From a virus (Duplodnaviria > Heunggongvirae > Uroviricota > Caudoviricetes): a DNA stretch of 64,000 nt. Made by a program: the position numbers and the translations under genes. Of the stretch, positions 1 to 55,966 are shown piece after piece. Numbering within the stretch: the first letter of the stretch is position 1; each line of letters begins with the position of its first letter. The stretch spans positions 4,130-68,129 of the IMG/VR virus record IMGVR_UViG_3300028601_000019. One strand, given 5' to 3'. The notes under the pieces were generated by a model, which had not been told where the DNA came from, did no database searches, and saw only the letters and a program-made list of their open reading frames with translations.

Positions 1-507
1 AATTCGCCCCTGAAGTAATCAAAGGGGGATGTATGAATTTCACGCAAGTGACTTTATAGAGTTCAATGACTTATGTTTGGTCCTATCCCATCTTAAGCCG
101 CCTCTATAATTGCTCAATGGATGTTGACCTAATAGCTATCCATTGAAGTGGTTAAACCGACTGTACTAGTTTCCTGTAACAATATCAATTTTTTCTAGTG
201 TTCTAGGGATTATATTTATTAATGGGGAAGGGAAGACCGTTTTGTAGATTGGGAGCAAGCAATTGCCCAAAAAGTTTAGATCAAACTAGACCATACCTAA
301 ACTTGGCTTAATCAACCAAACAGAACGTAGGGAAAACGTAAGATACCTCGCCGAAATGCATACTGCAATTTTTATTGTGGGATGTGGTTGGCAGGAAATT
401 GAGATGTTTCTTCTAGAATTTTAATAAGTCTAGGATAGATGTCTCAATTTCCTGCCGACTGCATTGAAAAATTAATTTTTATATTTTTAATTTTTTCTTT
501 GAGTGAA
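1..507. other. Noncoding region of about 500 bp with elevated GC and hairpins. A 15-17 bp inverted repeat (GGCAGGAAATTGAGAT / ATCTCAATTTCCTGCC) at about 400-468 encloses a TCTAGA-containing loop.
   Basis: No ORF is open in any of the three plus frames, even allowing TGA as sense. The inverted repeat was read directly from the sequence. Confidence 0.5.
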
Positions 508-939
508 TTAGATTTGAATAGCAATATTATCAATGTAGATTTTGTTTTCTGATTTCATTTGAATTGAAAACATTTGGAAACCTGATGGTGCTTCAATTTC
601 TTCAATCTGTTTAATTTTCTTTCTTTGAAAAAGAACATGACTTAGATTTAGACTTTTAGCTTTTACCAATGATTTATCAATAAGCATAAATTTTACATTA
701 TGGGAAACCTGAATATAATTTCCATCTTCAAGGGTTACTTTGATTAGAGATTTTTGATTGGCCTCTTCGATTAAAATGACTGGAGAAAAACCATTTACTG
801 TTAAAATTTCAAGAAATCTTTTGTTGATTTTTTTGTTGTCAAGTGCGCTTTTTAAAACATCAACCCTAATTGTGCTTAGTTTGTTTTTTCCCGTCTTAAC
901 AGTTACACTTGAACCTCTGTGAACATAACAATTTTCCAT
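508..939 (-). CDS. Hypothetical protein, 143 aa.
   Basis: ORF with an AAGGA ribosome-binding site 8 nt upstream of the ATG. A TAA lies in frame upstream. No in-frame TGA. Confidence 0.55.
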   Translation of the reverse strand: MENCYVHRGSSVTVKTGKNKLSTIRVDVLKSALDNKKINKRFLEILTVNGFSPVILIEEANQKSLIKVTLEDGNYIQVSHNVKFMLIDKSLVKAKSLNLSHVLFQRKKIKQIEEIEAPSGFQMFSIQMKSENKIYIDNIAIQI

Positions 940-1058
940 GATTATAATTCCTTTTCGTTTTGAATTATAATTATTTATTTAGATTCATTTTCTAATGAAG
1001 AACATTGATGTTTTAATGAATTTTTCATTGATTTCCTCTCAATTATAAATTTGTTTTC

Positions 1059-1066
1059 TATAAATA
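1059..1066 (+). promoter_or_regulatory. T4-type late promoter motif TATAAATA. It sits in an 8-nt insertion that is present in IS copy 1 and absent from copy 2, upstream of tnpB.
   Basis: Exact TATAAATA. Copy 2 reads TTCTATATATAATATT at the same place. Confidence 0.4.
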
Positions 1067-1098
1067 GATATATAATATTAAAACTAGGTTGTAAACAA

Positions 1099-2280
1099 AT
1101 GATTAGATCATCCAAACATATTTTGAAGTATCAGACTGGTTCCAAGACGAAAGTCTTGAACCAGCTTTTTGACGACTTCAGAACTGACTTGTCTTGGTAT
1201 ATAGATCTGATCATTGCTGGGCAATTGCCTCTAACCAAGTTCATGTCATCCAAGGACTTGCCTTCGGGGATCATTACTCATTCTGCTTGGAAACAAATTC
1301 TGTATAAAACAGCATCTGAAATTGTTCGTTCTCAATACAAACAAGCCTCTAATCAAAGATTCAAGCATTACAAGAAATTGTTCCACAAGTGCAGTAGTGC
1401 AAACAAACATTGTTTTTTTACTGACAAACGATTTAGTGAACTGAATCTCAAGCCAATTCATCAATCTAGGTTCTTTAGTAAGCCAGACTTAAAGAACTTT
1501 TCAATCACACTAGATTCTAGATTGATTGACTTTCAATATGGCTTGCATTTCGATGAATTTGTAAGAATTAAAACCCCATTGTTCCATGAGCACAAGAAAC
1601 GTGCCATTACAATCAATATTCCAATCAAACATCACAAACATAGTCGTAAATTCGAGTCATGGGAACGAAAGAACTCAGTTCGATTGACATTAAAGAACGG
1701 AGTCATGAATCTTGAATTGATCTATGAGAAAGATGCACCTAAACTAAAGACAGATGGTTCTGTTCTTGGAATCGATCAGGGCTACAAGAAACTAATGTCA
1801 TGCTCCGATGGAACATTTCTTGGTTCTGAGATGGAATCAATCTACAAGTTCATTTCCAACAAAAAACAAGGCTCTAAGGCTTTCAAGAGAGCATTGATTC
1901 ATAGGACCAATGAAACGAACAGAATTTGTAATTCTCTAGATCTTTCTGATGTCAAAGAACTTGTTGTCGAGGACCTCAAGAACTTGAAACATAAATCAAA
2001 ACTGTCAACAAATTTTATGAACAAGATGCAACGCTGGGTTTATCCAGCAGTACTGGGCAAATTGGAATCCTTGGCTGAAATGAACGGTGTTCATTTCACG
2101 AAGGTGAATCCTGCTTATACTTCGCAGACATGTTCTAATTGCGGATGTGTAGATCCTGAGTCTCGCCAAGGCGAAGACTTCATGTGTCTGCATTGTGGCT
2201 ATGAGATTGATGCAGACTGAAATGCATCAATCAACATTGCCCGTTTGGGAATTTATAGTTCCCAAAGTCCAAAAAGCTAA
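1099..2280 (+). CDS. tnpB: TnpB (IS605 OrfB family RuvC-like RNA-guided nuclease), about 393 aa.
   Basis: RuvC-I motif GIDQG; RuvC-II motif VVEDLKNL; zinc finger CSNCGC...CLHCG; RuvC-III motif DAD-TGA-NASINI. The ORF continues 20 codons past the TGA to a TAA. Confidence 0.85.
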
Positions 2281-2318
2281 TTTCATTGTTTTTCATTGAA
2301 ATTGGCAACTATGATCTC

Positions 2319-4310
2319 TTATCAAGTAGATTCTTCAAGATAGTGATCATCATTAATATCTGAAAGAATACCTCATACATCCTCTTCTTCTTTGTTTTTA
2401 AAAAGGTCAACCTCATCCTTAAAAAGTTCTGTATCAATAAGATAGCACATCCAATATAGACCTGAAACAAGGTCATCTCCACCATCTGTACTTGAAGTAA
2501 ACTTTCCATTCTTTTCAATAAAAGTAGAAATTTGTTTTGCTGTTTCCCTATCTTTAATTATTAGAGAACCGTCTTCAATAAGTTTTTTCATTGTGATAAC
2601 AGCTTTGGTTTTAGATGCTGATGTGGCTCTAATTCCGATTTCATTCTCTTTATTTCCAGAATTGTAAAGATTTGGATTTTCAAAAATTCACCAAAGATTT
2701 TGAGTAACAGTAGATCCCTCAGCATTGTTCTCTGCTCCAATAATAGCATCATTATAATAAATTGAAAGCCTGTTAATGATGGAAGAAAGTTCATAGGTAT
2801 CTGTGACATTGGATTGGAAAGTTGCAGCATTAACTAACTTAACTGGTTTGAATGAGTCTATTCTATAGATTTGAATAGTAGCATCATGAGCACCTGATCC
2901 TTTTGATGGATCAACACCAATAAGAAACTTTTCTCCTTGCTTTGGTTTATGATACACTCGTAATCTATCATTTAGATCTGTTTCTTGAGGATCTTCAATT
3001 GTTGTGTTAATAAATTCAATCCCAGCAGTTGAAACTAGAGTATTAGATGACCCGAGGAACTCAACTTCAAATTCCTGTTTGAATTTTGCAAGGTTGCCCA
3101 TATTCTTAATCTGTTTATCTCTTCAGGTCTTTGTTCTTCCAGGAATCATATCCCAAGTAACTTTCATATGTTTGTATTCATTTCTTTTTGCTTCAGCACC
3201 GGAATATATTTCATGAAATAGATTAAACACACCATTTGGGGTTGAAATGATAATAATTTTAGCCTCATCAGAAGATGAAATTGCTGGATATACTGAAGTA
3301 TAAAATTCTCTTGCTATACCGTCGGAGACGAATCCAAGTTCGTCGAGTAGAAGAAGTGCTACTGAACGCCCCCGAAAGGTATCTTCAGTTGTGCCGGCAG
3401 TTTCAATTTTTGACCCATTTTCAAATTCTATTGATTGTTTATTATATTCAACAACACCCGGTTTAAGATAGAAAGGAAGCTCTTCATACATAATTTTAAT
3501 ACGTCTAAGAAGGTCTTTTGCAGAACTTGCCTTATTAGATGCTATTCCAATAAATTTATCAGAGTGAAATATAGCATATCATAAAGCAAAAGCCCCTACT
3601 GTTGTTGAGTTATGACTCTTTACACCATTTGTATAATAACATTCTCCATCAACATCTAAACAATCATACATATTAGATGATGTATCTAATTTTTCAACAT
3701 TAGAAATTTCTATATCACCATTTTCGGTTTCTATAAAATCCCCAATAGTTAGATCCTTAGCATAAATTTCCTTGTCATCAGAAAATAGTATATGATTATC
3801 AGCACACACAAATTCAATGCCATTATTCAATGATACTTTATATTCATTATATTCAACAGTTTTACCAACACCAGAAAAATCTTTTCATCCATCTGGAGTT
3901 CAAATTTCATAATCTTCACAATTTCTTTTCTCTATAAATTTATCATTTATAACAAAAGAAGATGTTGTTAGTTTGTCAAAGAATTCCCCAATGGTTAATT
4001 CTTCTTCTATTCCTGTTTTCTTGTTTCTTATCTTTATTTTTGTATCCCAAGAAACGCACTTGCCCGATTGTCTACAGAATAAAAAAGTTAAGTATCTATG
4101 ATCTTTACACATTTTAATCATCTTTTTCTGGAAAGGATACAACAAATCTCCAAGCTTTTTTCTTCCACCATCAATTGTTACGATTGTAACAAAGTTTAAA
4201 AAATATAAAACATCTTCAGAACACTTTACAAGATCTGAAATCATTTCTGGTGTGTATTCATCTTCCATTCCTGGATTTTTTACAAATTTATCGTCATATC
4301 TAATTGACAT
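2319..4310 (-). CDS. gp17: Terminase large subunit (T4 gp17-like) containing a mini-intein. The precursor is about 663 aa and is read through 6 in-frame TGA codons.
   Basis: Five standard-code ORFs lie in one frame, separated only by TGA. T4 gp17 motifs are present: LFCRQSGK (Walker A), VEYNKQSIEFENGSKI and KIIIISTPNGVFNLFHEIY. The TGA aligns with an aromatic position in gp17. Confidence 0.85.
3609..4058 (-). other. Hint-domain mini-intein of 150 aa inserted in the terminase P-loop. It runs from Cys1 (CVSWDTKI...) to ...VKSHN and is followed by the +1 Ser of the extein (STTVGAFAL).
   Basis: The extein junctions QSGK|C and HN|STTV reconstitute QSGK-STTV, which matches T4 QLGKTTVV. Intein blocks A (CVSWDT), B (ADNH) and F/G (DCLDVDGECYYTNGVKSHN) are present. 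There is no endonuclease domain. Confidence 0.75.
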
Positions 4311-4409: not shown

Positions 4410-5579
4410 ATGTCTGAATTTGATATTTTATTTACAGAACAGGAGAAGAAATCTAAGACTTTTTATCAAATTTCTACTCTATTGGAAAACACTTATAAGG
4501 TAATCAAGAATAACAACCCCAATTTTACTATTGAGGAAGCTGTTTCCTATGCTACAGGGAGTTTGGGGGATATTTCAGATTTCTCAACTAACGGAATTTA
4601 TCATAAAATTTCCATGGGGCTGTCAAAGAAAACTTGGGATAGACTTATTGCAAGAGAAATTGTTGGTGTTCAACCAATGAATGGTCCTGTTGGCTTATAT
4701 TATGCATTAAGATTTTATGCCAATTCTACTTATGGTGGACAAGCAAATCAAGAGCTTGGATTTAACAAGGTAGATACAACTTACACAGGATCATTAACAC
4801 CATCAGCAAGTGAAGCATTGGGATCAGGTATTTCTGGGTATCCCGGACTTGGAATTGGAACCGGGGAAAACATTAAAGAGATTAACATTAAACTTGAAAA
4901 GAAACAAGCTGAAGCACAAACAAGAAAACTAAATGCAAGATTTTCTGAAGAGCTTTTTCAAGATGTTTTCACAATGCACGATGTTAATCTAAGAGATCAG
5001 GTTTATACTGGAATTGCTCGTGAAGTCCAAACAGAAATTGACCTTGAAGTCATTGAAAAGATTAATAGTGTAGCAACAGCAAAAACATTAAATTTTGCTA
5101 CTGTTGCTGGTGATAACAAATCTGATAAGTATAATTCATTTGTTGCATATGTATTAAATCTTGCTAATGTAATTGGTAAGACTTCTAATCATGGTAATGG
5201 TAATTTTGTAATTGCAAGTTCAAATATTTCCGGTGTAATTGAATCTACTCCTCAATTTTCTGTATCAATGATTACAGACAAACAATATGAATGGGATGAT
5301 AGAGTTTGTTTCGCCGGAACAATTAATGGAATGAAGCTTTTTAGAAATATTTTTTGGGATACTGATAAGTACATTGTAGGATATAAGGGTGAAACAGAAC
5401 TTGATGCTGGGATTTTTTATCTTCCATATATTTTTATGCATCTACAAGCCATTCAAGAAAATTCTTTCCAGAATTCTATTGGTGTAATGAGTAGATATGC
5501 AATTGGTGAAAATATTTTTGGTGCTGAGAAATATTATCAGAAAGTTGAAGTAAGCAATATGGATGTTTTATATTCATAG
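4410..5579 (+). CDS. gp24: Major capsid protein paralog (T4 gp24-like vertex protein or second MCP), 389 aa.
   Basis: Shares the T4 gp23/gp24 motifs VGVQPMNGPVG..ALRF and KKQAEAQTRKLNARFS..LFQD with the 11055 gene. No in-frame TGA. Confidence 0.7.
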   Translation: MSEFDILFTEQEKKSKTFYQISTLLENTYKVIKNNNPNFTIEEAVSYATGSLGDISDFSTNGIYHKISMGLSKKTWDRLIAREIVGVQPMNGPVGLYYALRFYANSTYGGQANQELGFNKVDTTYTGSLTPSASEALGSGISGYPGLGIGTGENIKEINIKLEKKQAEAQTRKLNARFSEELFQDVFTMHDVNLRDQVYTGIAREVQTEIDLEVIEKINSVATAKTLNFATVAGDNKSDKYNSFVAYVLNLANVIGKTSNHGNGNFVIASSNISGVIESTPQFSVSMITDKQYEWDDRVCFAGTINGMKLFRNIFWDTDKYIVGYKGETELDAGIFYLPYIFMHLQAIQENSFQNSIGVMSRYAIGENIFGAEKYYQKVEVSNMDVLYS

Positions 5580-9719: not shown

Positions 9720-9956
9720 ATGAAACTAATTGAAAAGATTGATGAATATTTAAATGAAGAAAATGTTGCTAGAAATCCCAAAACCGATTCGGTTGTAGAA
9801 AAGGGAAAAGATTGAACACTTATGAAGTCCGACCCCTATGGTCCAAATGGCAAATATACTGACTTTTATATTGTTTTTAAATCTGGGGGTTCTAAACCGA
9901 CATTTGAAACTCTAAAAGATGCTAAGAAATACCTAAAAGATCAGGATTACAAATAA
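9720..9956 (+). CDS. Hypothetical protein of 78 aa, with 1 in-frame TGA.
   Basis: Ribosome-binding site plus ATG. Frame verified codon by codon. Confidence 0.4.
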
Positions 9957-9978: not shown

Positions 9979-9986
9979 TATAAATA
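9979..9986 (+). promoter_or_regulatory. Late promoter TATAAATA followed by the conserved 5' UTR ATAAGGAACAATTCTTTAGGAGGAATTTA.
   Basis: The cassette repeats at 11009. Confidence 0.55.
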
Positions 9987-10025
9987 GTTTTATAAGGAAC
10001 AATTCTTTAGGAGGAATTTATTATA

Positions 10026-10991
10026 ATGGATATTAAAGAAATTGCAAAACTACTTGGCATCGAAGCTCTTGATGAGTCAGTAGCCAATGAAGTAGAAACC
10101 AAGCTATCTACTTTAGTTGAAAATAAAGTACAAGAAAAAGTAGAAGCTGCTGCCACTAAGAAAGCTGAAGTTCTAGCTAAGACAATGGTAGAGGAAGCTC
10201 TTGTTGAGGAAAAAGAAACTCTCAAAGAAGAGCTGGTTAAGGAATATGAAGAGAAGTTTGAAACTTACAAAGATACTCTTGCTGAAAAGTTTTCCATCTT
10301 TGTAGATGACATTCTTGCTGAAAAACTTCAGATTCCAGAGAACATCAAGGAATTTGCTCGTAAAGGTGAACTTTATGCAGATCTAATTGAACAGTTCAAA
10401 GTTCGTCTTGGAATTGATGAAGGTCTAGTTAATGATGAAGCTAAATCTCTTCTTGGCGAAGCTAAAGACGAAATTCTAAAACTTCGTGATGAAAAGAATG
10501 CTCTAACTGAAAAGTTTTTAAATGGTAAGTCTCTTCTTCATGAAGCCTCCATTACTCTTTATCTTTATGAAAAGTGTGATGGTCTAACTGAAGCTCAGAA
10601 AGAAAAAGTCTTTGCTATTCTTGAGGGTGTAACTGATAAAGAAACTATTGACAAGAAGTTCGATATTATTGTTGATACACTCGATGAAGAAGTTCTTACA
10701 GAAAAGGCTATCTCAGTTAAAGTAGTAGATCCCAAAAAGGCAGTCTCTGAACTAAAAAAGATTGGTGTATCTGCTAAAGTCGTATCTGAGTCTGAGGTTT
10801 CTTTCGATGTAAAAGATAAAAAGTCTGCAGTAGAATGGTTACTTAAAGATGGTGGTTGGGACAAGAAAGAGCTTAAGAAGTCTTATCCTGATTTAGTAGA
10901 GTCTGAAGGTGATGGAGTTGCTACTCCACAAATTACAGAAGAAGTTAAAGAAGATACATCTTTCGTTTCTAAATACCTCAACTATATCTAA
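10026..10991 (+). CDS. gp22: Prohead scaffold protein (T4 gp22-like), 321 aa, acidic with coiled-coil character.
   Basis: Rich in KE and lies between the protease and the MCP. No TGA. Confidence 0.65.
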   Translation: MDIKEIAKLLGIEALDESVANEVETKLSTLVENKVQEKVEAAATKKAEVLAKTMVEEALVEEKETLKEELVKEYEEKFETYKDTLAEKFSIFVDDILAEKLQIPENIKEFARKGELYADLIEQFKVRLGIDEGLVNDEAKSLLGEAKDEILKLRDEKNALTEKFLNGKSLLHEASITLYLYEKCDGLTEAQKEKVFAILEGVTDKETIDKKFDIIVDTLDEEVLTEKAISVKVVDPKKAVSELKKIGVSAKVVSESEVSFDVKDKKSAVEWLLKDGGWDKKELKKSYPDLVESEGDGVATPQITEEVKEDTSFVSKYLNYI

Positions 10992-11008
10992 AACAAAAAA
11001 GAAAAAAT

Positions 11009-11016
11009 ATAAATAG
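11009..11016 (+). promoter_or_regulatory. Late promoter TATAAATA plus the same conserved UTR, upstream of the MCP gene.
   Basis: Exact motif. The downstream 30 nt are identical to the cassette at 9988-10017. Confidence 0.55.
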
Positions 11017-11054
11017 ATTTATAAGGAACAATTCTTTAGGAGGAATTTAATAAA

Positions 11055-12296
11055 ATGTCTAAAATTAATGTTAAACAGCTAGTGGAAAAATGGAATCCAC
11101 TTATCAATGAGGAAGCAGTAGTTTCCAAAATTGGCAAGATTAAAGATAATAAGATCGAAGCTATGACTGCTATTATGTTGGAAAATGAATTCAACTATCT
11201 AAAAGAGCAGAATATGATTAGTGAAGCATCTTATACAGATGGTTCTTTTGGTACCAACTATGCAACTTCTGGTGAATTCCATAAGATTGCTATTCCCATG
11301 GTTCGCAGAACTTTCCCTAACCTCATTGCTCATGAAACTGTTGGTGTACAGCCAATGACCACTCCTGTTGGTCTAGCTTTCGCCCTACGTTTCAAAGCTG
11401 GTCAAACTTATAATAGTGGTTCCAACACTGAGCTTGGTTATAACACAGTAGATAAAGCTTATACTGGATCTATGATTACTTCTGCTGGTGAAGCTCTAGG
11501 TTCAAGTGTATCTCCCCCAGTTGGTTTAGGTATTGGTTCTGGCGATCAGATCAAGGAAGTCAATTTAACAATTGAAAAATCCCAGATCGAAGCTAAGACC
11601 CGTAAGTTACGTAGCCGTTGGTCCCTAGAGGTTGCTCAGGATCTAAATGCTATGCATGGTCTTGACATTGAATCTGAAATGCTTGATATTCTTTCTTATG
11701 AAATTCAGGCTGAAATTGACCGAGAAATCGTAGATGCTGTTAAAGCTGCTGCTAATAACAACTCTTACTCTTACGTTGCTGGTAAACAAGGTACACTTTC
11801 TTGGGCTTCCAGTGCTAATTTTGATGGTCGTTGGGAACATGAAAAATATCGTAACCTTTATAACTACACAGTTCGTATGTCTAACCGTATTGCTATCACA
11901 ACTCGTAGAGGTGCTGGTAACTTTATCGTAGCTAATCCTACTGTATGTGCTGCTCTTGAAGGAACTTCTAGTTTTACTATCGCTCCTGTAAATGGTAATG
12001 TAAACACTGGTAACACCTCTGTAGAAATTATCGGTACACTTGACGGACGTATGAAAGTTATCCGTGATACCTTTGCTACTGTTGATGAACTCACAGTTGG
12101 GTATAAGGGTGCTTCTGCAACCGGTATGGATGCTGGTATTATCTATTGTCCTTATGTACAGCTAATGCTAAGTCGCGCTACATTCGAAAATAGCTTTAAC
12201 CCAAGTGTTGGTTTGTTAAGCAGGTATGGGCTTCATAGTAATATCTTTGGTAGCGAAAATTACTACATGCGTGCAGTTATTGAAAATATGCCTTAG
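11055..12296 (+). CDS. gp23: Major capsid protein (T4 gp23-like), 413 aa.
   Basis: PMVRRTFPNLIAHETVGVQPMTTPVGLAFALRF matches T4 gp23 MVRRAIPNLIAFDICGVQPMNSPTGQVFALR. IEKSQIEAKTRKLRSRWSLEVAQDL matches IDKQVIEAKSRQLKAAYSIELAQDL. No TGA. Confidence 0.9.
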   Translation: MSKINVKQLVEKWNPLINEEAVVSKIGKIKDNKIEAMTAIMLENEFNYLKEQNMISEASYTDGSFGTNYATSGEFHKIAIPMVRRTFPNLIAHETVGVQPMTTPVGLAFALRFKAGQTYNSGSNTELGYNTVDKAYTGSMITSAGEALGSSVSPPVGLGIGSGDQIKEVNLTIEKSQIEAKTRKLRSRWSLEVAQDLNAMHGLDIESEMLDILSYEIQAEIDREIVDAVKAAANNNSYSYVAGKQGTLSWASSANFDGRWEHEKYRNLYNYTVRMSNRIAITTRRGAGNFIVANPTVCAALEGTSSFTIAPVNGNVNTGNTSVEIIGTLDGRMKVIRDTFATVDELTVGYKGASATGMDAGIIYCPYVQLMLSRATFENSFNPSVGLLSRYGLHSNIFGSENYYMRAVIENMP

Positions 12297-13306: not shown

Positions 13307-14278
13307 CTATATTCATATTCATAGTTTATAATCAAAGCCTGCATTTTTAACACTTTGCTCTTTTAATAAGTTCTTTTGAAGTTCTTTATTATATGTAAAT
13401 GTTGATTTTACTTCAACAATAAGATTATCTTTAGGTATATAGAAATCTGGAAAATATCTATGTTTTTTCATATCAATGCCTATATATCAAAAAGGAGGAA
13501 TTTCTCTCTTTTTATAAACAATTTCATTTTCGTTATATATTTTTAAAAGTTCATCAAAAACTTCCGGTTCATATCCCTGAAGATTGATAATTTTACCAGA
13601 TGGTAGTACATATTCATGTCATGATTTTTTATAGCCGCCCTGTGTTCTTTCAAAAACAATAGAACTTTGTGATGGATGATCTACGCCATAATTATTTTGT
13701 CACGTTTCTTTACAAGCATTTTTATAAATATCTGTTTTTGAAAACCAATCTACACCATATTTCTCTAAACAGGTTTCTCTATTTTTATCAAATCGCTCTT
13801 TTCTTTCAATTGGGGTTTCATTTCTATATCTTTCTTTAATGCTTTCAATATGAGTCTCGGTTTGAGTATAGTGTGGTACACCATATTTCTCTAAACAGGT
13901 TTTTTCGCTTTTATCTAATAATTCTTTAGATTGCATAGATCAAGGAACCCCATATTTTTCAACCATTGAATTATTAAATTTTTTTATAACTTCAGGATTT
14001 TTCATAGAACATTTTTGCGAGCAATGTCTTTTATACCCTTCCCTAAGATTAACATATTTAACTTTTTTCTGGTTACATATACAGCACAACATAATGTCAA
14101 AATTATCATTGATAATATGTCAACATCTTTGTGATAATGATGCGGTTTCAGGAAGAAATGATGTGAGTTCAAAAATTTGTATTTTTCTGTCAGGAAATCT
14201 AAAAAGTTTTCTGGGACTTATTTTTCCTAGAGAATCTAGCAAATTCTCTTTAATTCATATTTTTAGTTGATCGTTCAT
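13307..14278 (-). CDS. Homing-endonuclease-like protein of 323 aa, with about 6 in-frame TGA. It has an N-terminal zinc ribbon (CCICN...HCSQKC), tandem KYGV-containing repeats and a C-terminal PD-(D/E)xK nuclease motif (YFPDFYIP...IVEVKS).
   Basis: Translated by hand through TGA. The frame length is divisible by 3. Repeats are VEKYGVPW, CLEKYGVPH, CLEKYGVDW and NNYGVDHPSQS. Confidence 0.5.
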
Positions 14279-22500: not shown

Positions 22501-23484
22501 ATGAAACATGCTGTTTTTACTGATCTTCATGTTGGGTTAAATATTAATCAAGAAGTATGGGAAAAACTCCCTATTAAAGCTGTAGAATTTCTAACAACAG
22601 AAGCAAGAAGAAGAAATCTTAAATCTATTATTTTTGCTGGTGATTTTTATCATGATAAAAAAGAACTATCAATCAAAGCCATTGATTCAGCAAGAATAAT
22701 CTGCGAAATGTTAGATGAATTTCAAACATATATTATTTGTGGAAATCATGATGCGTATTTTAGAAATACAAACGAACTAAATTCCCTTCAAACAATAGAT
22801 AAGTTTAAAAACATTCATATTATTAATTCACCAACAATTATATATGATAAAATTGGTCTTTGCCCCTGGTCAACAGACTATAGAGAATTAAAATGCCCTA
22901 TTCTAATTGGTCATTTTGATATTAAAGATTTTAAAATGAATGATAATACAACATCTTTTAAAGGTGAAGAAATTTCAAGCTTTAAAGATTTTGAAATTGT
23001 TATTTCTGGTCATTATCATACATATTCCAAAAAAGGAAATATAGTATATATTGGAAATATGTATGGTCATAATTTTAATGATGTTAATGCAAGTAGAGGA
23101 TTTCATATTTTCGATGATGAAACTTTGGAATTAGAATTTGTAGAATTCAAAGATGCTCCTAAATTTATTCATGTTTTCGATATGGATCTTAATGAAGAAC
23201 AAATTAAAGGAAACATTATAAAAATCTATTTTACAAAAGAATATTCTGAAATGGATATCCTTGATTTTCTTACTCGAGTTAATTCGCTAAATCCTTTACA
23301 GGTTGATGTCAACTATTCCAGAATTGAAATGGAAGATGTTAAAATGGATATTCCTGAAGAGATTTTTTCAACATTAGATGAGAAACAATTGTTTCTTACT
23401 TACTTGGATAAAATTTCTATTCCTGATCATCTTAAACTTCCAATGTGTAAAAAGATTTTAGAAGATTTATTTAAAAATCAATAG
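22501..23484 (+). CDS. gp47: Mre11/SbcD-like recombination nuclease (T4 gp47-like), 327 aa.
   Basis: Metallophosphoesterase motifs DLHVG, GDFYH, GNHD and GHYH. T4 gene order 55-47. Confidence 0.8.
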   Translation: MKHAVFTDLHVGLNINQEVWEKLPIKAVEFLTTEARRRNLKSIIFAGDFYHDKKELSIKAIDSARIICEMLDEFQTYIICGNHDAYFRNTNELNSLQTIDKFKNIHIINSPTIIYDKIGLCPWSTDYRELKCPILIGHFDIKDFKMNDNTTSFKGEEISSFKDFEIVISGHYHTYSKKGNIVYIGNMYGHNFNDVNASRGFHIFDDETLELEFVEFKDAPKFIHVFDMDLNEEQIKGNIIKIYFTKEYSEMDILDFLTRVNSLNPLQVDVNYSRIEMEDVKMDIPEEIFSTLDEKQLFLTYLDKISIPDHLKLPMCKKILEDLFKNQ

Positions 23485-23486
23485 AA

Positions 23487-23525
23487 TAAAAAAGGTAACT
23501 AGAGCAATTTAGTTACCTTTTTAGT
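23487..23525 (+). terminator. Rho-independent terminator AAGGTAACTA-gagcaat-TTAGTTACCTT followed by a T-run.
   Basis: 10-bp stem. Confidence 0.7.
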
Positions 23526-23534
23526 TTCTGTTCA

Positions 23535-23860
23535 TTGTTTACCCAATCAATAATACCCATTAATCTATACCCTCCGTACTAAGTTATATTATAACTAACC
23601 TATCCGGATATCATTGTAAACAAACAAACTAGGAAAATTTTCGGCAATTTGATATCATGTCCGGAAAACTCAAGATTCTTGATGATTCTAGGAAACCTAA
23701 TTATATCAATAACTTAGAAATCCTCCAAATTCTTAGTTTTCCTAATCAAATTAAGTACTTAGAAGAAATCCTCAAAAAACTAGTGAAAATCGTGTATAAT
23801 TATATTGATTTTTTGCAGGATTCAGGAATCCTAATTATTGTAATAATTTAGGATTCTGAA
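23535..23860 (+). repeat. Copy 1 of a 330-bp dispersed repeat. It contains the palindromes AGTTATATTATAACT, AGGATTCAGGAATCCT and AATTATTGTAATAATT, and a small ORF (23657..23851).
   Basis: About 85-90% identical to 48598..48925. The first palindrome differs between copies but is perfect in both, a compensatory change. Confidence 0.7.
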
Positions 23861-23872
23861 AAAAGTAGTGTA

Positions 23873-23923
23873 CATTCTTTCAAAATCTGGTTATTCTGAA
23901 AACATCTTAACAAACAAAACCAA
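23873..23923 (+). promoter_or_regulatory. Early-type promoter AAAAAGTAGTGTACATT ... GGTTATTCTGAAAACATCTTAACAAAC.
   Basis: The 17-mer is shared with 27885. The leader resembles the others. Confidence 0.4.
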
Positions 23924-24304
23924 ATGGAGATTAAGATGTTTGCTATTATTAATGAAAAGAACGAAAGGTTGTCTAATGGTTACACACTTAAATTTGTAGA
24001 TGCTTCTAAACGCTGTTGTCTATGGAAGAATGAGACTCCTGCTAGGAATCTTTTGAATAAACTTACTGATGATGGTGTGGTTGGATTACGAGTTGAAGAT
24101 ATTGGGGATGAACTTCCTAAGGTTGAAAAGAAAGAACGAAAGCTAAAAGAAGAAACTCAATCTCAAGAAGAAGTTGAATTTGATGAAACTTCATTTTTTG
24201 AGCAAGGAATTAATGAAAAATGTTTGAGATGTGAGGGCGACTGTAAACAGTCAGCTCTTGTAAAAATTATTCGTTGCCCTAGTTTCAAAAAGATTAAAAA
24301 ATAA
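23924..24304 (+). CDS. Hypothetical protein of 126 aa with a C-terminal CxxC..C region.
   Basis: ORF with a ribosome-binding site. Confidence 0.5.
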   Translation: MEIKMFAIINEKNERLSNGYTLKFVDASKRCCLWKNETPARNLLNKLTDDGVVGLRVEDIGDELPKVEKKERKLKEETQSQEEVEFDETSFFEQGINEKCLRCEGDCKQSALVKIIRCPSFKKIKK

Positions 24305-24369
24305 TGTATGTACATTCTCTCAATAGTTTGATACTTCTATTTTTAACACAATCATTTAAGGAGATTTTA

Positions 24370-24645: not shown

Positions 24646-24652
24646 TTTTTTA

Positions 24653-32522: not shown

Positions 32523-32591
32523 AATGGCAACAATTCACAATAATGGATGGGATTTTGTTAAAGAAGGAGAAACATACCAATATTATATTTA
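32523..32591 (+). CDS. Short ORF of 22 aa (MATIHNNGWDFVKEGETYQYYI) that ends at the IS left boundary. It may be the remnant of an interrupted gene.
   Basis: GGAG ribosome-binding site. The stop TAG is the first IS nucleotides. Confidence 0.25.
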
Positions 32592-33926
32592 GATTCATTT
32601 TCTAATGAAGAATATTGATGTTTTAATGAATTTTTCATTAATTTCCTCCTGAAATTATAAAATTAGTCAAAAACAAAATTTGTTTTCTATATATAATATT
32701 AAAATTAGGATTTCCAATGATTAGATCATCCAAGCACATTTTGAAGTATCAGACTGGTTCAAAGACGAGAGTCTTGAACCAGCTGTTTGACGACTTCAGA
32801 ACAGATTTGTCTTGGTACATAGATCTAATCATTTCGGGGCAATTGCCACTGACCAAGTTCATGTCATCCAAGGACTTGCCTTCAGGGATCATTACTCACT
32901 CCCAATGGAAACAAATTCTATACAAGACAGCATCTGAAATTGTTCGTTCTCAATACAAACAAGCCTCAAATCGACGATTCAAGCATTACAAGAAATTGTT
33001 CCATAGGTGCATTAGTGCAAATAAGCATTGTTCTTTCACTGATAAGAGATTTAGTGAACTGAACCTCAAACCAATTCATCAATCTAGGTTCTTTAGTAAA
33101 CCAGATCTAAAGAATTTCTCAATAACACTAGATTTAAGATTGATTGATTTTCAATATGGACTTCATTTCGATGAATTTGTTAGAATCAAGACTCCATTGT
33201 TTCATGAACACAAGAAACGAGCTATTACAATCAATGTCCCAATCAAGCATCACAAGCATAGTCGTAAGTTTGAGTCTTGGAAACGCAAGAACTCAGTTAG
33301 ATTGACACTAAAGAACAATGTCATGAATCTTGAATTGATCTATGAGAAAGAAGCTCCAAAACTAAAGACCAATGGTTCTGTTCTTGGAATTGATCAAGGC
33401 TATAAGAAATTATTGTCTTGTTCCGATGGAACATTTCTTGGTTCCGAAATGGAATCAATCTACAAATTCATTTCAAACAAAAAGCAAGGTTCCAAATCCT
33501 TCAAGAGAGCATTGATTCATAGGACCAATGAAACGAATCGAATTTGTAATTCTCTAAATCTTTCTAATGTCAAAGAGCTTGTTGTCGAGGACCTCAAGAA
33601 CCTAAAACATAAAACTAAACTAAGTACTAATTTTATGAACAAGATGCAACGCTGGGTTTACCCAGCAGTACTGGGCAAATTGGAATCCTTGGCTGAAATG
33701 AACGATGTTCATTTCACGAAGGTGAATCCTGCTTATACTTCGCAGACATGTTCACAATGCGGATGTGTAGATCCTGGGTCTCGCCAAGGCGAAGGCTTCA
33801 GGTGTTTGCACTGTGGACATGAGATTGATGCAGATTGAAATGCATCAATCAATATTGCCCGTTTGGGAATTTATAGTTCCCAAAGTCCAAAAAGCTAATT
33901 TCATTGTTCTTCATTGAAATTAGTAA
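32588..33926 (+). mobile_element. IS605/IS1341-family TnpB-only element, copy 2.
   Basis: More than 90% identical to 978..2312 across the left end, tnpB and the right end. Confidence 0.75.
32717..33898 (+). CDS. tnpB: TnpB, copy 2, about 393 aa. The terminal TGA is read as Trp.
   Basis: Same motifs as copy 1: CSQCGC...CLHCGHEIDAD-TGA-NASINIARLG. Confidence 0.85.
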
Positions 33927-34149
33927 CTATCTATAGTAACAAAAAAACGTAGTTGTGGGAAACCTTCATATGAATCAATGTGTTTTGCTCTACAAAACAT
34001 GGCCCAAGTTATGAAGGAAAACAACATTACAGAAGTTTTTATGCCTAGAATTGGTTGTGGTTTAGACCGACTATCTTGGCCAGCAGTAAGGGAACAACTC
34101 AAATATGTGTTTGGCGATAGTGAGGTAACTTTCAATGTCTACTATCTCT
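33927..34149 (+). pseudogene. Macro-domain C-terminal fragment. The N-terminal half is missing and the frame opens exactly at the IS right end.
   Basis: YESMCFALQNMAQVMKENNITEVFMPRIGCGLDRLSW...EVTFNVYY resembles the macro C-terminal strands (SIAFPAISTG type). There is no VNAAN/GGGV region upstream. Confidence 0.4.
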
Positions 34150-34632
34150 AATATATTTGAAAATAGTTTGATTGAAAGTTTTAAAGGAGATTATGTATTT
34201 TTAAGTAATTTTTATTTTACATATGTTCTTTATGATGGCATTGTTTGAAAAACAGCTGAGCATGCATATCAGGCCTCTAAAACTCTTGATCCAAAAGAAA
34301 AGAAATGGATATTAGATTGTCCTACTCCACACCTTACCAAAGATTTGGGCCAAAGACTATCATTAAGGGAAGATTGGAATAAAGTAAAGATTCAAATTAT
34401 GAGAGATATTATATTTCAAAAGTTTGAAGCTAATAAAAACATTAAAGATAAACTTATTGCAACACATCCATTTATACTAATTGAGGGAAATGTATGGCAT
34501 GACAACTTTTGAGGGATGTGTAAATGTATAAAATGTGAAAATTTAAAAGTAAAGCATAATCACCTAGGAATTATTCTTATGGAATTGCGATCTTTATATA
34601 TAAACAATTCAGTGTTTTTTAAGGAGAATTAA
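34135..34632 (+). CDS. NADAR (YbiA/DUF1768) domain protein, 165 aa, with 2 in-frame TGA.
   Basis: GDYVFLSNFY and TAEHAYQASK motifs. Confidence 0.6.
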
Positions 34633-54917: not shown

Positions 54918-55346
54918 GTTTTAAAATATCTTCTCTTGAACTAACAACAATATTATTTTGAGTATAGGTGTTATTATCTCCGGATGGTAACACCTTTTCA
55001 TCTTTATTTTTCTTTAATTCAAATTCTAATTTTTTCAAATCCAAAAATTCTTGCTTTTGATTAGTGGTTTCTAATGATACATCATTAGATATCATTGAAT
55101 TAGCAGCACTAGTTATACAATCAATTAATTTAGCAGCAATCTCAACTAATTTAACTGTGGCTCCAGTCGTGCCAACACTTCATTCATCTTCAATTTTATC
55201 AAGAAGTCTCTGCGCCCTTGCGATATTTCCTTGAAGAATTTCATTAGGATTGTTTACATCCTCATCCAACTGGTTTTTAATATTCTTAAGTTCTTGTTTT
55301 GCTACTTCAATATCGAAACAATCTGAGAGGGTTTTATCCAACATAA
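54907..55346 (-). CDS. Hypothetical protein of about 146 aa, with 1 in-frame TGA. A minus-strand TATAAATA lies upstream at 55367..55374.
   Basis: The reverse complement shows a GGAG ribosome-binding site and an ATG. Confidence 0.4.
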
Positions 55347-55966
55347 TAAACTCCTAATTTTTTAACTATTTATATAAGGAGGTATGTGTGAAGAAATTAT
55401 TTCGCGAAGAATATGAAACATATAATGATGAGGCCATTAAAATTTCTAAAGAAATAGGAGTTGAGATCAGAAAAATGATTGATCATTATTGTAATGATTG
55501 CGGGTACTACGTAAATGAGATTCAACATATTTTATTTGACGAGGAATATTGAAATCAAAAAGGAGAAAAGAAAGAATGATTTGGCATAGTATTAGGGATT
55601 TTTTACCTGGACGAAATGTAAGACAAATACTACTATATTTTGCATCATCTCAAAACTTAGTTCTGATAAATTTAGATGAAGATCCTACCAATACTTCTAA
55701 TATAGTTCGGGAGTACATTTTTAAACGAAAATATCATGTAGAAGATAAACCTGATAATTATATTGATTGGCCCACTCATTGGATGGAAGTCAAATTTCCG
55801 GTAATTTAATTTATGAAAAGATACAAAATTAAAGTGTTTAAATATGGGGATGCTAGTTTTGATTATATAATCATACGAGCATTTGGATTTGATTCTCTTT
55901 GTTTACAAGCTGAAGATTTTTGTAGGAAGTCAACAACATATAAAGAATGGATTTTTGTTGGAGAAG

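What the first reader, a model, noticed from the sequence alone, without database searches (positions are those of the whole stretch)
978..2312. Two nearly identical TnpB-only IS605/IS1341-family elements in a phage genome; copy 1 carries a late-promoter insertion
A 1.33-kb element is present twice in direct orientation (978..2312 and 32588..33926). Each encodes a complete TnpB (RuvC-I/II/III and zinc finger) and no TnpA. Copy 1 has an extra 8 nt that creates an exact T4 late promoter TATAAATA upstream of tnpB. This would couple TnpB expression to the late phase. The conserved 3' region (NASINIARLGIYSSQSPKS plus about 35 nt) is where the omegaRNA scaffold is expected. The sequences just beyond the right ends differ (GATCTCTTATCAAGTAG versus CTATAGTAACAAAAAAACG), and these would be the guides. 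Both left flanks end in TATTT, a candidate TAM.
Basis: partly seen in the sequence, partly recalled or inferred. Interest (0 to 1): 0.75.

Follow-up and report, generated by a model that had tools for sequence, protein, structure and literature searches.

The report
RNA-guided nuclease transposons in a phage
A T4-like phage that reads the stop codon TGA as tryptophan carries two old, still well-preserved copies of a small mobile element encoding an RNA-guided DNA-cutting enzyme (TnpB); the element is a transposase-less member of an undescribed TAT-targeting branch of the IS607 family, not the IS605 type first proposed.

Summary
The two copies are real: 979-2312 and 32589-33930, direct orientation. 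They are diverged (ORF 89.7% nt, 94% aa), so this is not an assembly duplicate.

1. The genome reads TGA as Trp. tnpB is a 393-aa ORF (1099-2280; 32717-33898) that runs through an in-frame TGA one codon after the RuvC-III aspartate. "NASINIARLG..." is therefore coding sequence.
2. The 8 nt that make TATAAATA are ancestral. Copy 2 lost them.
3. The family is IS607-type. At least 30 relatives carry a serine-recombinase TnpA directly upstream of tnpB, and none carries a Y1 TnpA. Junctions read flank-TAT|element...AACTAT|flank, not the canonical GG.

Both copies are under purifying selection (dN/dS 0.07) and keep D226/E291/D373 and the zinc finger. Their last ~300 nt form a structured, covarying, omegaRNA-like region with no Rfam match. 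Related phages carry the element at three other sites, and empty sites were found for four of the five. TATAAATA behaves as a genuine late promoter in this phage.

Most likely function: an RNA-guided homing or retention nuclease made late in infection, with new-site transposition needing a TnpA in trans. Activity, TAM and expression timing are inferred. New variant of a known kind; moderate interest.

The parts
976..978 (+). Target-side TAT at the left junction of copy 1 (candidate TAM / crossover core)
   Evidence: Homology to empty sites L015-L019 stops after ...TTATTTAT. All independent insertions have flank-TAT at this position.
979..2312 (+). Copy 1 of the tnpA-less IS607-type element (1,334 bp), from TTAGATTC to GGCAACTAT
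   Evidence: Alignment of the two copies, comparison with L001, L180 and L261 at other sites, coordinates checked.
979..1045 (+). Left end with repeated TTCATT/AATGAA motifs; 56 of the first 60 nt are identical between the copies
   Evidence: Similar motifs occur in the left ends of L012 and L183.
1059..1066 (+). TATAAATA, a T4-type late promoter 33 nt upstream of the tnpB ATG (copy 1 only)
   Evidence: The motif is ancestral: present in L001 and L261, mutated in L005 and L180, deleted in copy 2.
1099..2280 (+). tnpB copy 1, 393 aa when TGA is read as Trp; catalytic D226, E291, D373; zinc finger C345/C348/C363/C366
2218..2220 (+). In-frame TGA (Trp374) between the RuvC-III Asp373 and Asn375; it lies in the loop of a conserved hairpin
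   Evidence: Evidence that TGA = Trp.
2009..2312 (+). Predicted omegaRNA scaffold region, overlapping the last ~270 nt of the ORF plus the 32-nt tail
   Evidence: MFE -108 kcal/mol against -74 +/- 5 for shuffles, z = -6.5. dS falls from 0.64 to 0.16 here. 65.6% of cells paired against 38-42% in slid controls.
2244..2266 (+). Conserved stem with a TATAG loop (TTTGGGAATT / AGTTCCCAAA)
   Evidence: 85% of cells paired; 4 pairs with 7-9 of 20 sequences changed on both sides.
2276..2312 (+). Terminal hairpin (2276-2306) plus single-stranded AACTAT (2307-2312) ending at the right boundary
   Evidence: A hairpin of 8-17 bp with unrelated stem sequences sits at the same position in about 17 of 20 family members. 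The boundary is fixed by L001, L180 and L260.
2313..2332 (+). Predicted guide / target of copy 1; overlaps the stop codon (2319-2321) and last codons of terL on the minus strand
   Evidence: Guide position inferred by analogy with IS607 omegaRNAs (PMC10690162, PMC10711439).
2319..4310 (-). Large terminase (T4 gp17-like) read through 7 in-frame TGA codons; contains a 150-aa intein at 3609-4058. Context gene next to copy 1.
32586..32588 (+). Target-side TAT at the left junction of copy 2
32589..33930 (+). Copy 2 of the element (1,342 bp); lacks the 8 nt that complete TATAAATA and retains a 17-nt block that copy 1 lost
   Evidence: L260 is 99.98% identical up to the last base, 33930.
32717..33898 (+). 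tnpB copy 2, 393 aa, in-frame TGA at 33836-33838
33627..33930 (+). Predicted omegaRNA scaffold region of copy 2
33931..33950 (+). Predicted guide / target of copy 2, inside the interrupted macrodomain ORF
32524..32588 (+). 5' fragment of the TARG1/OARD1-like macrodomain gene interrupted by copy 2 (MATIHNNGWDFVKEGETYQYYI)
33933..34151 (+). 3' fragment of the interrupted macrodomain gene (IVTKKRSCGKPSY...VYYL*)
   Evidence: Intact homolog in L020-L022; L020 against PDB 4J5R, E = 1.4e-23.
9939..9944 (+). Unoccupied site in the window (junction 9941|9942) where the related phage L261 carries a 74%-identical element
55345..55380 (-). Unoccupied promoter region in the window where related phages L005/L006 carry a decaying copy flanked by a ~25-30-nt duplication of this sequence

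Best explanation
Each copy is a transposase-less derivative of an IS607-type insertion sequence. It consists of a left end, a short promoter/RBS segment, tnpB, and a right end whose last ~300 nt (overlapping the 3' end of tnpB) fold into an omegaRNA scaffold ending in ...AACUAU.

Proposed mechanism:
1. Transcription reads through the right boundary and adds about 16-20 nt of flank as the guide: GATCTCTTATCAAGTAG... for copy 1, CTATAGTAACAAAAAAACG... for copy 2.
2. TnpB (393 aa, intact RuvC D226/E291/D373 and zinc finger) binds this RNA and cuts DNA that has a TAT-ending motif directly followed by the guide match. That is the unoccupied allele, found either in a co-infecting related phage or after excision.
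3. The break is repaired from the occupied genome, which copies or restores the element and co-converts neighbouring markers. For copy 1 the cut would fall in the 3' end of the essential terminase gene.
4. Insertion at new TAT sites needs a serine-recombinase TnpA supplied in trans by an autonomous relative.
5. The lineage is adapted to its phage. It carries a T4-type late promoter (retained in copy 1), and a TGA (Trp) codon sits one residue after the catalytic Asp373. Full-length nuclease can therefore be made only where TGA is decoded as Trp, probably late in infection.

SHOWN: sequence anatomy, selection, RNA covariation, family association, multiple sites with empty alleles, TGA = Trp, promoter-motif behaviour.
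INFERRED: expression, omegaRNA processing, the TAM, cleavage, homing and timing.
For: PROTEIN
- NCBIfam guided_TnpB E = 1e-28 (100.7 bits, cutoff 100); Pfam PF07282.
- D226, E291, D373 and the zinc-finger cysteines are invariant or nearly so in 40- and 45-sequence alignments.
- AlphaFold model pLDDT 88.6. Full-length fold matches: AsCas12f (E = 1e-16), ISFba1 IS607 TnpB 8iaz (1.3e-13), ISDra2 TnpB (1.6e-12).

SELECTION
- dN/dS = 0.071 between the copies.

RNA
- dS drops 4-fold in the last 90 codons.
- z = -6.5 for the last 304 nt.
- Covarying TATAG-loop stem and terminal hairpin across relatives 35-94% identical in protein.

FAMILY
- Serine TnpA directly upstream of tnpB in at least 30 loci of the clade (NCBIfam transpos_IS607, 182 and 169 bits). 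Y1 TnpA occurs only beside distant TnpBs.
- One autonomous relative is 99.6-99.8% identical in 9 phage contigs at 5 sites, with junctions GTAT|...CTAT| and an empty site.

MOBILITY
- The element lies at 5 different sites in related T4-like phages. Empty alleles exist for four of them.

CODE AND PROMOTER
- TGA aligns with TGG in relatives 19 and 21 times, against 1 Gly.
- TGA share of Trp codons is 16% in the 22.5-37.6 kb block against 60% elsewhere, p = 4e-10.
- TATAAATA: 12 of 16 upstream of gene starts, p = 3.5e-14. It is conserved upstream of tnpB in L001 and in the 74%-diverged L261.

LITERATURE
- IS607 TnpB-omegaRNA cleaves the donor joint and drives homing; the TAM equals the TnpA target (PMC10690162).
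Against: - There are no expression, RNA or cleavage data.
- No database sequence has an intact TAM + guide target for either copy. Related empty sites differ at 6 of 21 positions for copy 1.
- The TAM is unresolved. The element's own right end also ends in TAT next to the guide target, so self/non-self discrimination is unexplained. In most cases position -4 differs (C in the right end), but L001 has C on both sides.
- Copy 2 has lost the late promoter.
- The L005/L006 copy is decaying: ACG start codon, left end and right-end hairpin lost.
- No TnpA was found in the window or in contigs of this phage group.
- No suppressor tRNA lies in the window, so late gating by recoding is conjecture. The host could simply use code 4.
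- The low 3' dS could partly reflect gene conversion between copies.
- The tip of the right end is shared with an element that encodes a different TnpB clade. It may therefore serve TnpA binding rather than, or as well as, the omegaRNA.
Confidence: 0.62

Rival explanations
1. One reading: IS200/IS605 (IS1341-type) TnpB-only elements that move as single-stranded DNA through a Y1 TnpA and insert 3' of a TATTT TAM, with copy 1 having gained a late promoter by insertion.
For: The elements are TnpB-only. Hairpin-forming repeats occur near both ends. The flanks are AT-rich, which is typical of IS605 TAMs. TnpB-only IS200/IS605 elements have been reported in T4-like Campylobacter phages (PMC2853527).
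Against: No Y1 TnpA lies next to any close relative, whereas at least 30 have an IS607 serine TnpA. TAT occurs at both junctions, including in an autonomous relative with an empty site. TATTT is not conserved at the L261 junction or in the autonomous relative. The 8 nt are ancestral.
Confidence: 0.04
2. Inert relics: the copies are immobile leftovers of old insertions, kept only because they are harmless. TnpB and the RNA no longer function.
For: No TnpA in the window or the phage group. The copies are old, dS about 0.5. Copy 2 lost its promoter. The L005/L006 copy is clearly decaying. No perfect target was found anywhere.
Against: dN/dS is 0.07 over 393 codons with all catalytic residues intact in both copies. 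RNA structure is kept through compensatory changes. The in-frame TGA was acquired after entry into recoded phages and is retained in five lineages. The element lies at different sites in phages whose backbones are only 72-84% identical.
Confidence: 0.12
3. Phage-exapted weapon: the phage keeps TnpB and its fixed guides mainly to cut competing related phages at terL and at the macrodomain locus (exclusion or marker exclusion), not for the benefit of the element.
For: The copy 1 guide covers the end of an essential gene. A late promoter typical of the phage's own genes drives it. Free-standing homing endonucleases of T-even phages behave this way (PMC13565253).
Against: It cannot be told apart from selfish homing by sequence. 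The guides are simply the insertion flanks, as in any IS607/IS605 element. The copies sit at different sites in different phages, as expected for a mobile element rather than a fixed phage gene. Known relatives with empty sites have mismatched targets.
Confidence: 0.12
4. IStron: copy 2 sits inside an ORF, so it could be an IS607-type IStron that splices out of the mRNA through a group I intron.
For: Copy 2 interrupts a TARG1-like macrodomain ORF in the sense orientation. IS607-family IStrons exist (PMC10690162).
Against: No group I intron or any other Rfam family matches, even at E <= 10. Only about 120 nt lie upstream of tnpB, too short for an intron core. The interrupted gene also lacks its N-terminal third, so it is a remnant.
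Confidence: 0.02
5. Assembly artefact: one element was duplicated by misassembly.
For: None, apart from the general risk in metagenomic assemblies. L260 shows a different right flank for copy 2, which could be an assembly chimera in that contig.
Against: 121 nucleotide differences in the ORF, biased towards third codon positions (84 of 121). The indels in the left end differ and the flanks are unrelated. Each site has its own empty or occupied counterpart in other contigs.
Confidence: 0.01

Closest known systems
IS607-family TnpB-omegaRNA elements (CboIStron/CboTnpB, ISXfa1, ISFba1 and other RAGATH-18-type IS607 TnpBs)
   Same: Relatives have a serine-recombinase TnpA directly upstream of tnpB. 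The TnpB is about 390 aa. The guide RNA overlaps the tnpB 3' end and the right end. The same short motif occurs at the left junction and at the right terminus. There are no terminal inverted repeats and no target duplication beyond the core. TnpA-less copies exist. The fold matches ISFba1 TnpB (8iaz, E = 1.3e-13).
   Different: The junction/core motif is TAT (GTAT against CTAT in an autonomous relative), not GG. The implied TAM is AT-rich, whereas all characterised ones are G-rich: TGGG, GGG, AGGAG, GAGGG. There is no RAGATH-18 or other Rfam match. Sequence similarity to ISFba1 TnpB is weak (E = 0.003). The window copies have no tnpA. They carry a phage late promoter and an in-frame TGA.
TnpB-only IS200/IS605 elements (IS1341 group), including ISCaje1-3 in the T4-like Campylobacter phages CP220/CPt10
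   Same: TnpB-only elements of about 1.3 kb, present in several copies and at different sites in related lytic T4-like phages (PMC2853527). An RNA-guided nuclease with the guide taken from the right flank.
   Different: Different transposase partner and mechanism: Y1 single-strand 'peel and paste' against serine-recombinase double-strand crossover. The clade studied here is never found with a Y1 TnpA.
Free-standing homing endonucleases of T-even phages (Seg and Mob proteins, I-TevI)
   Same: Selfish nucleases lodged between or beside essential genes of T4-like phages. They are thought to spread during co-infection by cutting the allele that lacks them and being copied in during repair, co-converting flanking markers (PMC13565253). 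Late-phase expression (my recollection for I-TevI).
   Different: Target recognition here would be by a guide RNA plus a short TAM, not by protein-DNA contacts. The element also keeps transposon ends.
Cas12f (type V-F CRISPR effectors)
   Same: These are the best sequence and fold matches among solved structures: 9nzq E = 1.7e-15 by sequence, AsCas12f E = 1e-16 with TM about 0.55 by fold. Same RuvC / zinc-finger (TNB) core and a small size.
   Different: No CRISPR array or cas genes nearby. The guide is fixed by the insertion site. The element has transposon ends.
Stop-codon-recoded (TGA to Trp) phages, such as Agate, Jade and Sapphire
   Same: TGA is read as Trp. TGA-rich structural genes contrast with a TGA-poor block, as described in bioRxiv 10.1101/2021.08.26.457843.
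   Different: That work does not mention transposases. Here a mobile-element nuclease has itself acquired a recoded codon at its active site.

Membership tests
TnpB (RNA-guided endonuclease, OMEGA system) | Full-length match to a curated TnpB model | tested here: met
   NCBIfam NF040570 guided_TnpB, 100.7 bits (cutoff 100), E = 1e-28, residues 77-382. Pfam PF07282, 72.3 bits (cutoff 26.3). The NCBIfam score is only just above its cutoff.
TnpB (RNA-guided endonuclease, OMEGA system) | RuvC catalytic triad D-E-D and CxxC..CxxC zinc finger | tested here: met
   D226, E291 and D373 are invariant. C345, C348 and C366 are invariant and C363 is above 90% conserved in 40- and 45-sequence alignments. 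All are present in both copies. This holds only if TGA374 is translated.
TnpB (RNA-guided endonuclease, OMEGA system) | TnpB/Cas12f fold over the whole protein | tested here: met
   AlphaFold2 pLDDT 88.6, pTM 0.74. All top Foldseek PDB hits are Cas12f, TnpB or Fanzor (E = 1e-16 to 1e-10, more than 420 aligned columns).
TnpB (RNA-guided endonuclease, OMEGA system) | Structured guide-RNA scaffold overlapping the 3' end of tnpB and ending at the right end | tested here: met
   z = -6.5. Covariation score 0.231 against 0.10-0.14 for slid controls. TATAG-loop stem 85% paired, with compensatory changes. The terminal hairpin is conserved in structure but not in sequence. dS drops 4-fold. This is sequence evidence only; the RNA itself has not been observed.
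TnpB (RNA-guided endonuclease, OMEGA system) | RNA-guided, TAM-dependent DNA cleavage | not testable with these tools
   Needs a TAM-library or interference assay.
IS607 family | Serine-recombinase TnpA encoded in the element | tested here: not met
   Absent from both window copies and from the whole window. It is present directly upstream of tnpB in at least 30 relatives of the same TnpB clade (NCBIfam transpos_IS607, 182 and 169 bits against a cutoff of 110). The window copies are therefore non-autonomous derivatives.
IS607 family | The same core motif at the left junction and at the right terminus (crossover site); no inverted repeats, no larger target duplication | tested here: met
   TAT lies before the left end, and ...TAT forms the last bases of the element, at 5 sites of the window-type element and 5 sites of an autonomous relative. 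Empty sites carry a single TAT.
IS607 family | GG core dinucleotide / G-rich target and TAM (as stated for the family in PMC13565253, PMC10690162, PMC11061315) | tested here: not met
   The junction motif is TAT (GTAT target, CTAT right terminus). No GG occurs at any junction examined.
IS607 family | RAGATH-18-type omegaRNA (for the characterised subgroup) | tested here: not met
   No Rfam family reaches its gathering score in the window, and nothing relevant appears at E <= 10 in either copy.
IS200/IS605 family (including the IS1341 TnpB-only group) | Association of the TnpB clade with a Y1 (HUH) TnpA | tested here: not met
None of the close relatives was hit.
IS200/IS605 family (including the IS1341 TnpB-only group) | Insertion 3' of a 4-5-nt TAM, with a right end that does not repeat it | tested here: not met
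   The right end repeats the junction TAT.
IStron | Group I intron at the 5' end of the element | tested here: not met
   No Intron_gpI or other match. Only about 120 nt lie upstream of tnpB.
TldR-type domesticated TnpB (RNA-guided repressors) | Loss of RuvC catalytic residues | tested here: not met
   The triad is intact in both copies.
T4-type late promoter | TATAAATA placed a few tens of nt upstream of the start codon, in a phage that uses this motif | tested here: met
   Copy 1: 1059-1066, 33 nt before the ATG. 12 of 16 motifs in the window are within 60 nt upstream of a same-strand start, against 4.1% background, p = 3.5e-14. Not met for copy 2. Transcription itself was not tested.

The most novel reading that the evidence does not exclude
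The window elements belong to an undescribed, largely phage-borne branch of IS607-like transposons that recombine at TAT instead of GG, use an AT-rich TAM and have a new class of omegaRNA. Within TGA-recoded T4-like phages this branch has become a phage-locked, doubly late-gated homing nuclease: a T4-type late promoter drives it, and a TGA (Trp) codon placed one residue after the catalytic RuvC-III aspartate means that active enzyme is made only after the phage has switched the cell's genetic code.
Probability: 0.3. Interest if true: 0.7.

Novelty: new variant of a known kind. Interest (0 to 1): 0.55.

Why it matters
1. It corrects the family assignment. It also shows that the 'strict GG' rule for IS607-type elements is not universal: a TAT-junction clade exists, is common in large phages and includes recently active copies (one element 99.7% identical at five sites in nine phage contigs). 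This predicts compact (~390 aa) IS607-type TnpBs with AT-rich TAMs and a new guide-RNA scaffold, which is relevant to the search for small genome editors.

2. It gives a natural example of RNA-guided nucleases behaving like the free-standing homing endonucleases of T-even phages. One copy lies 6 nt from the terminase stop codon, with empty and occupied alleles available in related phages. That makes 'transposon homing between co-infecting phages' testable.

3. A mobile-element gene has acquired a recoded stop codon at its active site. This ties the element to alternative-code phages and offers a test of the idea that recoding gates late proteins.

4. A practical point: standard-code gene calling truncates this TnpB and fragments most genes in the window.

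Tried and rejected
- Rfam, at gathering thresholds on the whole window and at E <= 10 on both copies: only two tRNAs. No group I intron, no RAGATH-18, no other omegaRNA family. The IStron idea for copy 2 was rejected.
- GenBank phage collection: no near match to the backbone, and only a weak 270-nt hit to the element.
- Guide searches: each guide matches only its own flank in the window with up to 3 mismatches. The copy 1 target has no exact match in IMG/VR.
- Code 25 (TGA = Gly) rejected in favour of Trp.
- TATTT as the TAM rejected in favour of a TAT-ending motif. I could not resolve the positions upstream of TAT.
- An extra CTAT as part of copy 2's right end was considered, because it would make the macrodomain frame continuous and L005 shares it. 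It was rejected because L260 diverges exactly after AACTAT.
- Y1 TnpA association: none.
- Serine TnpA in the window or in contigs of the same phage group: none.
- Pfam did not recognise the interrupted ORF. A PDB sequence search did: TARG1.
- MAFFT and RNAalifold could not align the variable terminal hairpin, so I documented it by folding each sequence separately. I did not build a covariance model.
- The left boundaries of most autonomous relatives could not be fixed without empty sites.
Full report
**1. What is in the sequence**

A ~1.33-kb element occurs twice in direct orientation. With boundaries refined by comparison with other insertions, copy 1 is 979-2312 and copy 2 is 32589-33930.

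The copies are clearly diverged. The ORF is 89.7% identical in nt, with 83 synonymous and 24 non-synonymous codon differences, and 84 of the 121 substitutions fall at third positions. The indels in the left end differ and the flanks are unrelated. This is not an assembly duplication.

The window has no third copy, no solo ends, and no TnpA of the serine type.

**2. The genetic code changes the reading of the gene**

The large terminase on the minus strand (2319-4310) is a single frame interrupted only by TGA codons, and it ends at TAA. With TGA read as sense the window is 90% coding, and every called gene ends in TAA or TAG.

Where the window has TGA, related phages most often have TGA or TGG: 19 cases of Trp in one direction and 21 in the other, against one Gly. 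So TGA = Trp. Trp frequency becomes a normal 1.40% instead of 0.73%.

As a result tnpB does not end at 2220. It continues through TGA (2218-2220; 33836-33838) to TAA at 2278-2280 / 33896-33898 and gives 393 aa in both copies. At the TGA column, homologs have L, I, F, Y, V, H, T or S and never G.

**3. The protein**

- It matches NCBIfam guided_TnpB (E = 1e-28, 100.7 bits, just above the cutoff of 100) and Pfam PF07282.
- D226, E291, D373 and the CxxC..CxxC cysteines are conserved across 40-45 homologs and are present in both copies.
- An AlphaFold2 model (pLDDT 88.6) matches Cas12f, ISFba1 TnpB (an IS607 TnpB), ISDra2 TnpB and Fanzor2 over its full length.
- dN/dS between the copies is 0.071, so both have stayed under strong purifying selection through a long divergence (dS about 0.5).

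**4. The 3' RNA**

Identity between the copies rises to 117/120 in 2009-2128. dS falls from 0.64 in codons 1-303 to 0.16 in codons 304-393 while dN is unchanged.

The last 304 nt fold with an MFE of -108 kcal/mol, against -74 +/- 5 for shuffles (z = -6.5).

Across 20 family members whose TnpBs are 35-94% identical to the window protein, three features recur:
- A hairpin over the DAD-x-NA codons, with the TGA in its loop.
- A stem with a TATAG loop whose arms covary: TTGGG/CCCAA, AGAGG/CCTCT, CAGGG/CCCTG and others. It is 85% paired, and in four of its pairs 7-9 of the 20 sequences are changed on both sides and still pair.
- A terminal hairpin of 8-17 bp with unrelated stem sequences, ending 5-8 nt before the boundary and followed by ...AACUAU.

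For the window's full MFE structure, 65.6% of cells pair against 38-42% when partners are slid. The covariation score is 0.231 against 0.10-0.14. That structure was derived from one of the aligned sequences, which inflates the contrast. The two 3' helices carry the real signal.

Rfam has no match.

I read this region as the omegaRNA scaffold, with the guide starting right after AACUAU. That placement follows characterised IS607 systems, where the scaffold ends with the core motif (PMC10690162, PMC10711439). One caveat: the last ~20 nt (TTCATTGAAAT..G.AACTAT) also occur in an autonomous relative that encodes a different TnpB clade. This tip may therefore double as the transposase's recombination site.

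**5. Which IS family**

In L007, L101 and L183 (TnpB 45-50% identical) the gene directly upstream of tnpB is an IS607-family serine transposase: NCBIfam transpos_IS607, 182 and 169 bits against a cutoff of 110, plus the Pfam Resolvase domain. A tblastn survey found a serine TnpA upstream of tnpB in at least 30 loci of this clade. A Y1 probe hit only loci with distant TnpBs. L183 and L012 share the window's right end almost base for base.

The junctions fit a serine-recombinase mechanism, but the motif is unusual. Every insertion reads flank-TAT|element...TAT|flank:

| Insertion | Left junction | Right junction |
|---|---|---|
| Copy 1 | TTTAT\|TTAGATTC | AACTAT\|GATC |
| Copy 2 and L180 | TATAT\|TTAGATTC | AACTAT\| |
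| L001 | TCTAT\|TTAAATTC | AACTAT\| |
| L261 | AATAT\|AATTTTT | AATTAT\|CAGG |

Empty alleles support this:
- L015-L019 have terL directly followed by the neighbouring gene, and they share sequence with the window only up to ...TTATTTAT.
- L020-L022 have an intact macrodomain gene.
- The window itself is empty at 9941|9942, the site occupied in L261.

The strongest evidence comes from one autonomous 1.89-kb element (serine TnpA of 193 aa plus a TnpB of 392 aa). It is 99.6-99.8% identical in nine large phage contigs, at five sites, with junctions GTAT|TGTAAC...TGTAACTAT|. The flank of one insertion (...CCGTAT|CTGAAG...) serves as the empty site for another.

Published IS607 elements 'terminate in GG', integrate at GG and have G-rich TAMs: TGGG, GGG, AGGAG, GAGGG (PMC10690162, PMC10711439, PMC11061315, PMC13565253). 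This clade is therefore IS607-like in transposase and logic but fails the GG feature. By analogy with CboIStron (TAM TGGG against right end TCGG), GTAT against CTAT could distinguish target from self. For the window-type copies this remains unresolved, because L001 has C at -4 on both sides.

TATTT is not supported as the TAM. The TT after TAT is element sequence.

**6. Mobility and history**

The phage-borne lineages (W1, W2, L001, L005, L180) are about equally distant from one another, at 83-88% nt identity. W1 and W2 are barely closer to each other (88.3%) than W2 is to L005 (87.7%). This is not a recent duplication within the genome.

Element divergence does not track backbone divergence. 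The window and L005 backbones are 72-78% identical but their elements are 85-88%. The window and L261 backbones are 77-84% identical but their elements are about 71%.

L005/L006 carry a decaying copy with an ACG start and with the left end and right-end hairpin lost. It is flanked by a ~25-30-nt duplication of a late-promoter region, which looks like recombination rather than transposition.

L260 is 99.98% identical to the window over 4.2 kb up to the last base of copy 2 and is unrelated beyond it. That is either a rearrangement exactly at the right end or a chimeric contig.

**7. Adaptation to the phage**

The window is a T4-like phage. It has a gp17-like terminase (E = 9e-57 once the intein is removed), two Gp23-family proteins, and relatives with Portal_T4, the gp21 protease and the gp22 scaffold.

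TATAAATA is not over-represented overall (16 observed against 11.9 expected). However, 12 of the 16 lie within 60 nt upstream of a same-strand start codon, against 4.1% background (p = 3.5e-14). Copy 1's motif sits 33 nt before the ATG.

L001 has both the 8 nt and the 17-nt block, and the 74%-diverged L261 also has TATAAATAGATATATAAT. The promoter is therefore ancestral to this phage-borne lineage. Copy 2 lost it by an 8-nt deletion, and copy 1 lost 17 nt elsewhere.

TGA makes up 16% of Trp codons in the 22.5-37.6 kb block and 60% elsewhere (p = 4e-10). This is the pattern reported for phages that switch a standard-code host to TGA = Trp late in infection (bioRxiv 10.1101/2021.08.26.457843).

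If that applies here, the TGA one codon after D373 would restrict full-length TnpB to the late phase. Under the standard code the product ends at D373 and lacks the helix at residues 372-385 of the model. This is conjecture. No suppressor tRNA lies in the window, the host is unknown, and with only five Trp codons the gene's own codon usage is uninformative.

What is firm is that these tnpB copies cannot make a complete protein in a standard-code cell.

**8. Context of the two copies**

Copy 1 lies between an unannotated 143-aa gene and terL. Its right end is 6 nt from the terL stop codon, so the predicted guide (2313-2332) covers the end of an essential gene. The same gene also hosts a 150-aa intein at 3609-4058.

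Copy 2 interrupts a TARG1/OARD1-type macrodomain gene. The intact homolog matches PDB 4J5R at E = 1.4e-23. In the window this gene also lacks its N-terminal third. A NADAR gene follows it.

**9. Verdict**

The interpretation needs revision on four points: ORF extent, polarity of the 8-nt change, TAM and IS family.

The elements are best described as non-autonomous members of a TAT-junction, IS607-like clade that is widespread in large phages, here adapted to a TGA-recoded T4-like phage. TnpB-only elements in T4-like phages (PMC2853527) and homing by IS607 TnpB (PMC10690162) are already known.

The departures from what is known are the TAT core, the AT-rich implied TAM, the unclassified omegaRNA, and the recoded codon at the active site.

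Noticed in passing
window, whole; e.g. terL 2319-4310 (-), 13307-14278 (-), 60415-61974 (+): The phage reads TGA as Trp. 123 in-frame TGA codons occur in called genes, and all genes stop at TAA or TAG. TGA supplies 16% of Trp codons in 22501-37648 but 60% elsewhere (p = 4e-10), suggesting a standard-code-compatible early block and recoded late genes. No suppressor tRNA is in the window; the only tRNAs are tRNA-Arg(CCT) at 27332-27406 and tRNA-Met at 27412-27485.
   Followed up: partly
window 3609-4058 (-): A 150-aa intein (C...HN, with Ser at +1) is inserted in the Walker A motif of the large terminase (GK|C...HN|STT). After removing it, the protein aligns with T4 gp17 at E = 9e-57.
   Followed up: partly
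L260 (ENA ERZ27247324 k141_937490), locus 1-4214 against window 29717-33930: This contig is 99.98% identical to the window up to the last base of copy 2 and completely different from the next base on. It is either a rearrangement exactly at the element's right end or a chimeric assembly.
   Followed up: partly
L005/L006 5920-7225; window equivalent about 55345-55380 (-): Related phages carry a decaying copy: ATG changed to ACG, the first ~65 nt of the left end missing, and the right-end hairpin deleted. It sits between two copies of a ~25-30-nt late-promoter segment (TATAAATAGTTAAAAA), which suggests insertion by recombination at promoter sequences.
   Followed up: partly
L269-L277 (IMG/VR 3300045988 contigs), locus about 2403-4291: One autonomous 1.89-kb IS607-like element (serine TnpA plus a TnpB of a different clade) is 99.6-99.8% identical in nine large phage contigs, at five sites, always as GTAT|TGTAAC...TGTAACTAT|. 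This implies very recent activity in phages.
   Followed up: partly
window 23535-23870 and 48594-48935: A ~330-nt non-coding direct repeat (~90% identical) lies in two long intergenic regions. It is rich in iterated AGGAAnCCTAATTAT and TTAGAAATCC motifs and could be an origin or a regulator-binding array.
   Followed up: no
window 28138-28437 / 28455-28754; 25854-25923 / 29589-29658: A 99%-identical tandem duplication with a 317-nt period, and a 100%-identical 70-nt repeat 3.7 kb apart (TTTTGGGAGAGATGAACCTC...).
   Followed up: no
window 32524-32588 + 33933-34151; 34135-34632: The gene interrupted by copy 2 is a TARG1/OARD1-like macrodomain remnant that also lacks its N-terminal third. A NADAR-domain gene follows it, so the pair forms an ADP-ribose-processing module. 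The two reading frames overlap slightly.
   Followed up: partly
window 4410-5579 and 11055-12296: There are two Gp23-family proteins (389 and 413 aa). They are probably gp24-like vertex and gp23-like major capsid paralogs, as in T4.
   Followed up: no
window 9979-10028 and 11008-11057: A 50-nt repeat (94% identical) contains TATAAATA, an RBS and the ATG in front of the scaffold-like and major capsid genes. This extended late-promoter/leader cassette resembles the promoter segment inside the element's left end.
   Followed up: partly
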